In this document: positions 38,501 through 41,500 of the stretch, one piece after another
How the letters are laid out: every line of letters starts with the position of its first letter
Position numbering within the stretch: the stretch's first letter is position 1
Assembly: GCF_964204865.1 (NCBI RefSeq)
Contig: NC_135258.1
Coordinates: forward strand, 9,300,001 to 9,364,000
Direction: 5' to 3'
Length of the DNA stretch: 64,000 bases
Source of the DNA: Styela clava
Lineage: Eukaryota
Program-made: the position numbers

Positions 38501-41500
38501 GTCGCGGACAACAGGTATGTTCACTTCAAGCGGTAAAAGAGAATAAAGCAAAAATTGCCATGTCTAATAAAATTCTTTTTTCAACAGTAAGAAATCGGAC
38601 AAACTTGGTGATAACTGGAAGAGGGGCATCCCGATTGAGGTGATTCCAATGGCAAGAGTGCCCGTCACAAAGTCCATTACCTACATGTTTGGAGGAGAAG
38701 TTATTTTAAGGATGGCAAAAAGTAAAGCGGTATGTCCTAAATGTTCAGATTTCATAATTATCTGGCATTGATTGATATTCTTGGTCAAGTATGAAATGCT
38801 AGTTGATGCAAAGCAATTGCACACGAGCCACGAAAGTTCTGAAGTTTTAAAAACACATGACTGCTTCTCCTGATAGCCTCGCACAATTTTCACCCTAAGC
38901 TAGACGCATTTAAAGTATTACAGTAAGTATTACAACTTGTGCAGCTGACCTAATAATCAGATCTGCCAATAAAGAAAGAAGCCCTTTGTGCAAATGGCAG
39001 TTGGCCGTCCTAATCTTTCCAAGCAATTCTAAACAATTTCCTTCTTGCTTCTCAGGGTCCTGTTGTGACTGATAATGGAAACTTTATATTGGATTGGAAA
39101 TTCAAGAAGCTGCATGACTGGACCGAAGTGCATAAAGAAATTAAACTTATCCCAGGTTAGTTCGTAGCCATCATATTTATTCCAATAAATAAACTCAAAA
39201 GATTTGTCACCTAAACCAAACATTTATTTCATGAACAGGAGTGGTAGAAACTGGACTTTTTGTCGACATGGCAAAGTGTGTTTACGTCGGTCATCCAGAT
39301 GGTACAGTGGAAGTCATACATGCCAAAATTTGATTGTCCGTCGAGGAGGCAAGCTGTTGCTGCTTTTCTAAAACTTTTTTCATCCTGTAATACCAGGGTT
39401 TGATCCTCGTGTACTTTGCCATATCTTCGAACGATACAAGGCCTTCCATTACAGACAAAACTGCATATACAGACTGTAAAAGCAAAATAGAGAAACTGAG
39501 CACTTTTATATTATACCTTTTTGCTGCTACAGCTGTATTTGAATGGAAGAATTTTATTACTTCACATCGTGCATTGCAATATTGTTGTGAATAAAGCAAA
39601 TCTGTTTGTTATTAAGATGTCTGTTTAAATATTGCATATAGCAGCAGGCAATGGCATAGACAGGACTCGAAAGTTCGCTTCCTGGAAAAAAGACTGGGAC
39701 CACCACAACTATGTATGTTACGGGGATATTGCTTCTCAGACGCACAACACTAACCTCTGTCGCCTCTCAATTTTGTTGGTACTAATATAAATTTTAATTA
39801 GGGACACAGCAAGGGCTAGACAGAAACGCTTATTCCATGAACAGTGGGAAGAGAAGCCCTACTCATCTGGTTCAGACCAGCCAGAAGCAATTAAAAAGAC
39901 TCTGGCCACTTTAAACACTTACCAGATCAGCAAGATTAGGTTCATCTCCACCCATGAATTTCTTCTTTCCCATTGCATCACACCATTCATTACAAGCAAG
40001 ATAGAGATCCACTCGAACATCATCTCTCATATTATATCTGAAACGATATTATTTTTACTTGATCTACTTGTACTTCAAAAGTGGATTAAACCGTAACTTG
40101 CAAAGTTGCAATATATATGATTTGAGATGAAGTGTGCACTTCTTAAAACTACATGACATTTAGAGTTAGTTGTATGAACTAGGTTCCAATGGTACTTGTA
40201 TTAATGTCCAAAATTTTTTTATATCAAGATCTGGATTGCAAACAGCAAAGTAACACGTGGTCGCTCAAACCTAAAAAGGTATGTTACAGATAGTTGTGAG
40301 CCAATGCTTTTTTGAGTCATTTTCATTAATACTGTTTCATACGATACACCCATAGCAGTGGTCACCGAAGTGTGGGTCGGGACCCCAGGTGGGGCCGCCT
40401 TAAATATTTATGGGGTCGCAGAGTGTCCATCGATGTTTTGTTCTGTTATTATTTTATTGGGTGTGTGATGTCTTGGATATTACCAAATTGCCAGTAGACA
40501 AAAATATTACAGTTTATTATAAGTAAAACGTCAGTATAACACTGTTTTAACGTTATACATTTCACATGAATAATATGCATGCAGACAAGGAGCAATTACG
40601 AGAAAGTAATTATGCCATGTTGATCACAAATGGGTTGGGGTGAAAAAGAATGAGTGTACAGTCTACACTTCACTAGGCCGACTAGCGATATTCTGAATTA
40701 GAGTGATATCTCTGTAATAAGGCTATTGTGTAACGACAATAATATAAGTTTTAAAGTAAAAAGTGTTGCGTTTTCACTGTAATGGACTATGACTATTGCT
40801 TTATTGTTTGTTAAGTTTCACAAAGGGCTGATAAACATAAATGAATAGGTCATGTGATAAATTTTTTTTTAAAGCATGGTTGAACCGAAATGCGCTGTTT
40901 GTCAAAAAGTTCTATCGATAAGAAGCTTAAGCTACATTATGCCACAATCTCAAAAGCTCTGCGAAGAAAAGCAATCGGTTAAATGTGTGATCAGTTTTTA
41001 TTGGTTTTATTTTTTTTCATTTCAGAAAATATACTTTGAGGGCGCCAATGCTCATCATACGTCATAATTTTTTGAAATGGGGTCGCTTCTTGAAAAGTTT
41101 GAAGACCACTGACCCATAGTATGCGACACCATACTACCGGAGACTGTACATCAGGGGTTCTCAAACTTTTGATGTTGCGGAGCCCTTAAAAAGTTGACTA
41201 TCATTCACGGAGCCCCAAAATATATGTTAAAATTGTTACTTTCCGATTAATATTCCTGAGTAAGTTTTTACCTAACTTAAATGCTAAACCTTTTTTAATA
41301 GGGTTAATACAAGCCATAAATAAATGTCAATTTCAAAAATAAATTAAATATACTAAAGCTGTAAATTTGACACTTGACAAACAAACATATTAATAAATTA
41401 GGGGTCGAATCTTTTCCCTTTTGACATTTTCGAAGACTTGAAAGGCCACTAATGATGTGCGTGATTGCATTTTGTTACAATCGGCGATTGTTTTCGTCAG

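What the first reader, a model, noticed from the sequence alone, without database searches (positions are those of the whole stretch)
39156..39600. RPIA and PTGES2 overlap in their coding sequences on opposite strands, with interlocked 3' ends
Seen: the RPIA last exon (+, 39239-39333, ..GHPDGTVEVIHAKI*) and the PTGES2 last exon (-, 39473-39291, ..NQILACMTSTVPSG*) share 43 coding nt (39291-39333). The candidate RPIA AATAAA (39590) is in the last PTGES2 intron, and the candidate PTGES2 AATAAAs (39223, 39176) are in the last RPIA intron, so each mRNA would be antisense to the other's whole terminal coding exon. Known: the RPIA residues in the overlap include the conserved DG.V end of the fold, while PTGES2 here extends about 15-20 aa past the vertebrate C-terminus. 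Inference: PTGES2 gained a new tail by reading into RPIA antisense. CDS-CDS overlap is rare in animals and could couple the genes through dsRNA or polymerase collision.
Basis: partly seen in the sequence, partly recalled or inferred. Interest (0 to 1): 0.75.

Follow-up and report, generated by a model that had tools for sequence, protein, structure and literature searches.

The report
Two tunicate genes share coding DNA
In the sea squirt Styela clava, two ordinary enzyme genes on opposite strands, ribose-5-phosphate isomerase and prostaglandin E synthase 2, share their last 43 coding bases; the overlap is real and a related species keeps it, but it is an uncommon example of a known kind of gene arrangement, not a new one.

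Summary
The window is Styela clava. RPIA (+) ends at 39333 and PTGES2 (-) ends at 39291, so 39291-39333 (43 nt) codes on both strands. NCBI's models for both genes have exactly these C-termini. An unnamed relative has the same last 13 PTGES2 residues and the same last 12 RPIA residues, on contigs too short to hold introns.

RPIA is the older reading: G362, D365, G366 and V368 are conserved in 92-107 of 107 homologues, and its tail length is ordinary. PTGES2 is the one that extended. Its tail after W379 is 33 aa against a median of 20 in 137 homologues. None of the 149 other listed representatives aligns past residue 402, and AlphaFold2 gives pLDDT below 50 for residues 400-411.

The third codon positions of the two genes coincide, so most of the tail's conservation follows from constraint on RPIA. 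Only a TGA stop in RPIA lets PTGES2 read on.

Transcript 3' ends and any regulatory coupling could not be tested. The closest known case is the TRalpha2/Rev-erb-alpha coding overlap. This is a new member of a known kind, of moderate interest.

The parts
39291..39333 (.). Stretch that codes on both strands (43 nt). It holds RPIA codons G362 (third base) to I375 plus the stop, and PTGES2 codons N399 (third base) and Q400 to G412 plus the stop. Third codon positions of the two genes coincide.
39239..39333 (+). Coding part of the RPIA last exon (..GVVETGLFVDMAKCVYVGHPDGTVEVIHAKI, stop TGA at 39331-39333).
   Evidence: identical to the C-terminus of NCBI model P0006
39291..39473 (-). Coding part of the PTGES2 last exon (S353 to G412, stop TGA at 39293-39291).
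   Evidence: 100% identical over 100% of its length to NCBI model P0003
39056..39155 (+). RPIA penultimate exon ([14 protein letters not shown]...KLIP, then the first base of Gly345).
39156..39238 (+). RPIA last intron (83 nt, GT..AG). It holds both candidate PTGES2 poly(A) signals.
39223..39228 (-). First AATAAA downstream of the PTGES2 stop (63 nt after it). Its complement TTTATT lies in the pyrimidine tract 10 nt before the RPIA acceptor.
   Evidence: use as a poly(A) signal is inferred
39176..39181 (-). Second candidate PTGES2 AATAAA.
   Evidence: inferred
39474..39922 (-). PTGES2 last intron (449 nt, GTAAGT..CAG). It holds the candidate RPIA poly(A) signal.
39590..39595 (+). Only AATAAA or ATTAAA on the + strand between the RPIA stop and 39800 (257 nt after the stop).
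   Evidence: use is inferred
39923..40037 (-). PTGES2 penultimate exon (..YNMRDDVRVDLYLACNEWCDAMGKKKFMGGDEPNLADL).
40038..46070 (-). Rest of PTGES2. tblastn segments, ends approximate: 42641-42862, 43317-43532, 44549-44761, and 45750-46070 with the start codon at 46070.
37193..39055 (+). Rest of canonical RPIA. Exon ends are approximate: first exon from ATG 37193 to 37342, about 37787-38029, about 38447-38512, about 38586-38729.

Best explanation
This is a genuine tail-to-tail overlap of two housekeeping enzyme genes of Styela clava, and a related species keeps it. RPIA's C-terminal coding sequence is the older reading. PTGES2 runs 13 codons past the place where most of its homologues stop, and it reads those codons from the antisense strand of RPIA codons 362-375.

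The two frames are in the phase where third codon positions coincide. PTGES2's stop (TGA) is the complement of the last base of RPIA Gly362 (GGT) plus the first two bases of His363 (CA). RPIA's stop TGA supplies the CA of PTGES2 Gln400. A TAA or TAG stop in RPIA would read as TAA in the PTGES2 frame and end PTGES2 at codon 400.

The added tail is most likely a poorly ordered appendage that is tolerated. Its conservation is largely a by-product of selection on RPIA. In 9 of the 14 RPIA codons, every RPIA-synonymous change is also silent in PTGES2.

Shown: the exon structure, the 43-nt coding overlap, its presence in NCBI's models, the same protein ends in a second species, and the age asymmetry between the two readings.

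Inferred: that the overlap arose by PTGES2 extension. Also inferred: that the mature mRNAs are complementary over about 235 nt (39239-39473) if the predicted poly(A) signals are used; 43 nt is the minimum. Any coupling of expression is likewise only inferred.
For: Species and gene models:
- the last-exon peptide matches 'prostaglandin E synthase 2-like [Styela clava]' (P0003) at 100% identity and 100% coverage. It matches unnamed P0004 at 83% identity and 100% coverage. These were the 2 hits among 18 candidates.
- P0006, 'ribose-5-phosphate isomerase-like isoform X3 [Styela clava]', ends ..VGHPDGTVEVIHAKI. Unnamed P0008 ends ..IGQPDGTVEVIHAKI.

Second species:
- P0003 and P0004 are 321/416 identical. 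In the tail, residues 380-399 differ at 8 of 20 positions and residues 400-412 at 0 of 13 (Fisher one-sided p = 0.009).
- The contigs of P0004 (1,358 nt for a 414-aa protein) and P0008 (1,003 nt for 263 aa) are too short to hold introns like those here, so they look like spliced transcripts (inference).
- The two changes near the overlap fit a retained overlap. H363Q in RPIA falls on shared third position 39294 and is silent for PTGES2 Gly412. N399D in PTGES2 can be coded GAT, which keeps RPIA's TGA.

Age asymmetry:
- RPIA conservation, and tail length 9 against a median of 10.
- the Pfam RPIA domain covers profile positions 1-173 of 173 and ends at G366.
- the yeast structure 1xtz_A aligns through ..DGSVEV.
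- the PTGES2 tail is 33 aa against a median of 20 in 137 homologues.
- none of the 149 other listed representatives has a best stretch past query residue 402.
- 1z9h_A aligns to residue 388 and ends 6 residues later.
- pLDDT is below 50 for residues 400-411, with mean pLDDT 79.2.

Codon geometry: of 45 possible third-position changes, 19 are silent in both genes, 11 in RPIA only, 11 in PTGES2 only and 4 in neither.
Against: - No transcript, 3'-end, ribosome or peptide data for S. clava could be consulted. A minor or major PTGES2 isoform that ends elsewhere is therefore not excluded.
- PTGES2 tails are naturally variable. 11 of 137 homologues have tails of 33 aa or more, so 'extension' is relative to a noisy baseline.
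- The low pLDDT of the tail may partly reflect empty alignment columns there: only 2 of 44 rows have these residues.
- That the relative's two genes actually overlap in its genome is inferred from its proteins only.
- The 'passenger tail' reading is weakened by five informative positions (the stop, Q400, L402, C404, M405). An RPIA-silent change there would have altered PTGES2, and none did. If third positions were saturated, this would have probability 0.005. At 0.5 or 1.0 substitutions per site it would be 0.25 or 0.08. The real synonymous divergence is unknown.
Confidence: 0.75

Rival explanations
1. The PTGES2 tail is itself under purifying selection, that is, it is a functional new C-terminus. 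The interlocked 3' ends may also be kept because they couple expression of the two genes through sense-antisense mRNA pairing or convergent transcription.
For: - All five third positions where an RPIA-silent change would alter PTGES2 or its stop are unchanged in the relative, as inferred from the proteins. The probability is 0.005 under saturation and 0.08 at 1 substitution per site.
- RPIA uses less-favoured codons at two of them: GTC (RSCU 0.68, opposite Met405) and GCC (RSCU 0.58, opposite Leu402).
- Each gene's only nearby poly(A) hexamer lies in the other's last intron.
- Convergent overlaps are reported as better conserved than divergent ones (PMC2330155, passages).
Against: - Synonymous divergence between the two species is unknown. 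At 0.25-0.5 substitutions per site the retention is unremarkable (0.48-0.25).
- The codon-usage hint is not specific. GTG/TCC, a pair free to change in both genes, is equally unfavoured (RSCU 0.71 and 0.56).
- The tail is predicted with pLDDT below 50 and matches nothing in the other homologues.
- There are no expression data of any kind.
Confidence: 0.17
2. The coding overlap is an artefact: an assembly or base error removed the true PTGES2 stop, or the gene model picks the wrong terminal exon.
For: The NCBI model is a prediction, and its transcript support could not be inspected. One base (G39332) separates the present reading from a stop at codon 400 (genetic code).
Against: An independent record from a different species, P0004, is 77% identical overall and has the same 13-residue tail and the same end, on a 1,358-nt contig. 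The frame is open from the acceptor at 39473 to 39291. The splice sites are canonical.
Confidence: 0.04
3. RPIA, not PTGES2, is the gene that grew into its neighbour.
For: RPIA's last 7 residues (EVIHAKI) are not conserved outside the Styela-like pair. Only 6-49 of 107 homologues even align there.
Against: RPIA's tail after G366 is 9 aa against a median of 10 (range 5-104) in 107 homologues. The conserved G362..V368 block lies inside the overlap. PTGES2's overlapping residues are the ones with no homologues.
Confidence: 0.03

Closest known systems
TRalpha2 (THRA) / Rev-erb-alpha (NR1D1) bidirectional coding overlap of eutherian mammals
   Same: Two protein-coding genes converge, and the lineage-specific C-terminal coding exon of one is read antisense to the conserved terminal coding exon of the other. 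[quoted passage not shown] That is the kind of stop-to-stop state I propose as a possible ancestor here.
   Different: There, the overlapping exon belongs to an alternative splice form and the overlap is tied to splice choice. Here, it is the only terminal exon in the models seen, the overlap is short (43 nt), and the partners are metabolic enzymes in a tunicate. No regulatory role has been tested here.
Convergent (tail-to-tail) overlapping protein-coding gene pairs / cis natural antisense transcripts in animals
   Same: Opposite strands, 3' ends facing each other, poly(A) signals lying within the neighbour's transcription unit. Human and mouse surveys report such pairs as the commonest class of overlap (PMC2335118; PMC2330155). 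Reuse of a neighbour's antisense poly(A) signal has been proposed for ACAT2-TCP1 (PMC2151771, passage).
   Different: Most such overlaps involve UTRs only. Coding-coding overlap is the minority: 51 of 615 and 28 of 497 opposite-strand pairs.
Overprinting: a new coding sequence born in an alternative frame of an existing gene
   Same: New PTGES2 residues are read from an alternative (antisense) frame of an older coding sequence. The new part is predicted with low confidence, so it may be disordered. The overprinting concept was seen only in abstracts listed.
   Different: Only a 13-residue extension of an existing protein is involved, not a new gene. The case is in an animal nuclear genome, not in a virus or bacterium.
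Prokaryotic convergent overlaps in the phase that shares third codon positions
   Same: [quoted passage not shown] Changing G39332 to A would give exactly such a 4-nt TTAA stop-stop overlap (genetic code).
   Different: The present case is eukaryotic, involves spliced genes, and is 43 nt long, not 4.

Membership tests
Ribose-5-phosphate isomerase A (RPIA) | Full-length match to the Rib_5-P_isom_A domain above the curated cut-off | tested here: met
   PF06026: 214.4 bits against a cut-off of 26, profile positions 1-173 of 173, residues 192-366 of P0006. 21 solved RpiA structures match at E of 1e-20 or better; the best is 1xtz_A at 7.8e-66 (queried with P0008).
Prostaglandin E synthase 2 (membrane-associated, glutaredoxin/GST-like) | N-terminal glutaredoxin/GST-N domain with the CPFC motif, followed by the helical C-domain, and similarity to the solved mPGES-2 | tested here: met
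   GST_N_3 at 44.2 bits and Glutaredoxin at 33.5 bits, both above their cut-offs. C124 and P125 are invariant, and F126 and C127 are kept in at least 90% of 44 sequences. 1z9h_A matches at E 4.9e-84 over residues 114-388. Enzyme activity was not tested.
Convergent protein-coding gene pair with CDS-CDS overlap | Two recognised protein-coding genes on opposite strands whose coding sequences share nucleotides | tested here: met
   39291-39333, 43 nt. Both ends agree with the NCBI models.
Convergent protein-coding gene pair with CDS-CDS overlap | Both overlapping ends present in mature transcripts | not testable with these tools
   No S. clava RNA data are available. The only indirect evidence is that the relative's P0004 and P0008 lie on contigs of 1,358 and 1,003 nt, too short for introns.
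Convergent protein-coding gene pair with CDS-CDS overlap | Conservation of the overlap in another species | tested here: inconclusive
   The protein ends are the same in a relative, and the two nearby changes are compatible with a shared duplex. Its genomic arrangement was not seen.
Overprinting / C-terminal extension by stop-codon change | The extension is absent from outgroups while the overlapped frame is ancient | tested here: met
   for PTGES2; for RPIA.
Overprinting / C-terminal extension by stop-codon change | Ancestral stop located in orthologous DNA of outgroups | not testable with these tools
Regulatory sense-antisense pair (cis-NAT with effect on expression) | Demonstrated dependence of one gene's expression or processing on the other's transcript | not testable with these tools
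   No expression, small-RNA or editing data are available.

The most novel reading that the evidence does not exclude
The overlap was created by one base change that was silent for RPIA. An ancestral 4-nt TTAA stop-on-stop arrangement (RPIA ..ATT TAA, PTGES2 ..AAT TAA) became ..ATT TGA. RPIA's stop stayed a stop, PTGES2's TAA became CAA (Gln400), and 13 ready-made antisense codons were released up to the next stop, which RPIA's invariant Gly362 (GGT) plus His363 provide. The new tail then came under its own purifying selection, and the interlocked 3' ends now tie the expression of a pentose-phosphate enzyme to that of PTGES2.

The evidence does not exclude this. The median PTGES2 tail in 137 homologues is 20 residues after W379, which places a stop exactly at codon 400. 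Only TGA among the RPIA stops lets PTGES2 read on. All five informative third positions are retained in the relative.
Probability: 0.15. Interest if true: 0.55.

Novelty: new member of a known kind. Interest (0 to 1): 0.35.

Why it matters
Coding-on-coding antisense overlaps between two conserved nuclear genes are a small minority of animal gene overlaps, and few have been traced to their origin. This one is short and clean, it involves two enzymes with hundreds of homologues, and its protein ends are retained in a second species. It could therefore serve as a worked example of three things:
- how a protein gains a C-terminal extension by overprinting;
- how the phase in which wobble positions coincide limits the mutual cost;
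- how far one stop codon's identity (TGA versus TAA or TAG) controls the neighbour's length.

It does not open a new category, and it does not make a long-standing question testable. Both gene models already sit in NCBI's annotation. One search found no paper that holds 'ribose-5-phosphate isomerase', 'prostaglandin E synthase 2' and 'overlapping' together (0 papers).

Tried and rejected
- ORF statistics as evidence. The antisense frames of the RPIA last exon are generally open: two of the three minus-strand frames run right through it. The chance that PTGES2's frame passes His372 is about 0.5. Openness therefore proves nothing, and I dropped it as an argument.

- Codon usage in the overlap (reference set of 3,199 codons from 8 long open frames in the window). 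RPIA's GTC and GCC are less favoured, and they sit opposite constrained PTGES2 positions. The unconstrained GTG/TCC pair is just as unfavoured, so the result is uninformative.

- Looking for the ancestral stop. Alignments of 15 sequences and 21 sequences show the nearest non-Styela homologues ending 10-43 residues after W379, with no common end. P0142 ends ..EQIVQTVHA, which MAFFT places against ..NQILACMT. I take this to be a chance resemblance, and it is the one hit whose phmmer stretch reaches residue 402.

- Rows dropped before counts. In one search, 25 of 164 sequences were dropped because no W aligned to W379 or the score was 60 or less. In one search, 12 of 119 were dropped because they are truncated or alternative C-termini.

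- Rfam at gathering thresholds and ARAGORN found nothing in the window.

- Not done:
  - Adjacency of the two genes in other tunicates and synonymous rates.
  - Complex prediction, fold search and the protein-atlas search, because no claim here needs them.
  - The listing of cluster members, so as not to trace the unnamed records to their samples.
  - Supplementary files of papers, which are closed. The overlap tables of PMC2335118 and PMC2330155 may hold further CDS-CDS cases that I could not see.
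Full report
**What the window is.** GC content is 29-42% in 2-kb windows, and there is no N. The peptide of the PTGES2 last exon matches 'prostaglandin E synthase 2-like [Styela clava]' (P0003, 412 aa) at 100% identity over 100% of its length. An RPIA exon matches 'ribose-5-phosphate isomerase-like isoform X3 [Styela clava]' (P0006) at 100%. 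Both records are listed with the same longest contig length, 23,510,596 nt. The window is therefore from a tunicate and is not human.

I searched the window's genes exon by exon and did not join exons myself. The full-length comparisons below use the database records that those searches returned.

**The observation.** The RPIA last exon is 39239-39333 (+). Its acceptor AG is at 39237-38, and the Gly345 codon is split across the 83-nt intron 39156-39238. The exon ends ..GHPDGTVEVIHAKI followed by TGA. The PTGES2 last exon is 39473-39291 (-), behind a canonical pyrimidine-rich acceptor and a 449-nt intron (39474-39922). It ends ..NQILACMTSTVPSG followed by TGA. The two coding sequences share 39291-39333, 43 nt.

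tblastn of the two NCBI proteins against the window places six PTGES2 exons between 46070 and 39291. It finds five of the RPIA exons between 35823 and 39333. The two RPIA exons it misses were placed from the ORF list.

On the + strand, the only AATAAA or ATTAAA between the RPIA stop and 39800 is at 39590, in the PTGES2 intron. On the - strand, the first two signals after the PTGES2 stop are at 39228-39223 and 39181-39176, in the RPIA intron.

**Is it real?** Three lines of evidence say yes.
- NCBI's models for both genes have exactly these ends.
- A second, unnamed organism has the same ends. P0004 is 321/416 identical to P0003 and P0008 is 226/258 identical to P0006. P0004 ends ..DQILACMTSTVPSG and P0008 ends ..IGQPDGTVEVIHAKI.
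- Those two proteins lie on contigs of 1,358 and 1,003 nt. These are too short for introns like those here, so they look like spliced transcripts (inference).

An assembly error or a wrongly chosen last exon in S. clava is therefore unlikely. Openness of the antisense frame is not evidence in itself.

**Which gene moved?** RPIA's part of the overlap is ancient. Among 107 usable homologues of 119 examined, G362 and G366 are invariant, D365 is kept in 92 and V368 in 99. RPIA's tail after G366 is 9 residues against a median of 10. The Pfam RPIA domain ends at G366, and the yeast structure 1xtz_A aligns through this block.

PTGES2's part is young.
- After the invariant W379, the Styela protein has 33 residues (32 in P0004). 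The median is 20 in 137 usable homologues of 162 examined, and 110 of those have 27 or fewer. However, 11 have 33 or more.
- phmmer against 1.84 billion representatives found 1,694 relatives. Of the 149 other best hits listed, none has its best stretch reaching beyond query residue 402.
- The solved vertebrate chain 1z9h_A ends 15 residues after the equivalent W.
- AlphaFold2 with a 44-row alignment gives mean pLDDT 79.2, with values below 50 for residues 400-411, exactly the overlapping residues. Those alignment columns are nearly empty, which also lowers confidence.

**How the two readings fit together.** The third codon positions of the two genes coincide. This is the phase called 'phase 2' in a preprint on convergent overlaps (passages). 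Of the 45 possible third-position changes, 19 are silent in both genes, 11 in RPIA only, 11 in PTGES2 only and 4 in neither.

In 9 of the 14 RPIA codons, any RPIA-synonymous change is also silent in PTGES2. Nine PTGES2 tail residues are therefore conserved automatically as long as RPIA's protein is.

This explains most of the contrast in the P0003/P0004 tail. Positions 380-399 differ at 8 of 20 sites, and positions 400-412 differ at 0 of 13 (Fisher p = 0.009).

The one RPIA difference inside the overlap, H363Q, falls on shared third position 39294 and leaves PTGES2 Gly412 unchanged.

Five positions are informative: the PTGES2 stop, Q400, L402, C404 and M405. None changed. The probability of that is 0.005 if third positions are saturated, 0.08 at one substitution per site and 0.25 at 0.5. 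The true divergence is unknown, so selection on the tail itself remains open.

**Stops.** PTGES2's TGA is the complement of the T of Gly362 (GGT) plus the CA of His363. RPIA's TGA supplies the CA of Gln400. If RPIA ended in TAA or TAG, the PTGES2 frame would read TAA at codon 400 (plus the genetic code). That would be a 4-nt TTAA stop-on-stop overlap and would leave a 20-residue tail, which is the family median. A single A-to-G change, silent in RPIA, could therefore have created the extension. This is a hypothesis only. Opossum TRalpha/Rev-erb-alpha shows a comparable adjacent-stops state (PMC3047299, passages).

**Transcripts.** At least 43 nt of each mRNA must be complementary to the other. 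If the hexamers at 39590 (+) and 39228-39223 (-) are used, the mature mRNAs would pair over 39239-39473 (235 nt), and the transcription units would overlap by about 400 nt. This is inferred from signal positions only. dsRNA formation, RNA editing and polymerase collision could not be tested.

**Comparison with what is known.** Convergent overlaps are the commonest overlap class in human and mouse. Coding-coding overlap is a minority: 51 of 615 and 28 of 497 opposite-strand pairs (PMC2335118, passages). It is reported as selected against (PMC2330155, passages). The closest individual case is the TRalpha2/Rev-erb-alpha antisense coding overlap (PMC4569393 seen as a listing only). No paper in the searchable library holds the two enzyme names together with 'overlapping'.

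**Verdict.** The overlap is real and its protein ends are retained in a second species, and PTGES2 is the gene that extended. It is a new member of a known kind, of moderate interest (0.35). Regulatory coupling is unproven.

Noticed in passing
window 35823-36185 (+) and 37193-37342 (+): NCBI's RPIA isoform X3 (P0006) starts with an exon that encodes a Spin-doc-type zinc finger (PF18658, 35.0 bits against a cut-off of 27.3). An in-frame ATG at 37193 gives MNKFLRISSVLLKPKLK.., the same N-terminus as the relative's plain 263-aa RPIA, P0008. X3 may be a read-through or fusion with an upstream zinc-finger gene, or an alternative first exon.
   Followed up: partly
window 39223-39228: The complement of PTGES2's first candidate AATAAA is the TTTATT of the pyrimidine tract 10 nt before the RPIA last acceptor. 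One hexamer may therefore serve both genes.
   Followed up: no
window 39176-39193: TTTATT (a minus-strand AATAAA) is followed directly by AATAAATAAA on the + strand, all inside the 83-nt RPIA last intron. There are thus poly(A)-like hexamers on both strands, and RPIA could in principle be polyadenylated within the intron.
   Followed up: no
window 1-1308 (-), 7475-8569 (+), 10864-11403 (+), 29525-29860 (+), 33979-35354 (+), 47992-48486 (-), 54211-57105 (-): The region is gene-dense, with several long uninterrupted open frames. They are an MFS transporter, a PP1-type phosphatase, archease, Mak16, an FMO-like monooxygenase in two frames, Med31, and a neutral ceramidase as a single 964-aa frame. 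The 700-aa frame at 12770-14872 and the 180-aa frame at 32924-33466 (-) have no Pfam match at 1e-5.
   Followed up: partly
P0142 (unnamed representative), C-terminus: Its tail ends ..AATEQIVQTVHA, and phmmer carries the match to query residue 402, further than for any other hit. This is probably chance. If it is another ascidian, it could mark an older origin of the first overlap residues.
   Followed up: no
whole window: No Rfam family at gathering score and no tRNA gene was found in the 64 kb.
   Followed up: yes
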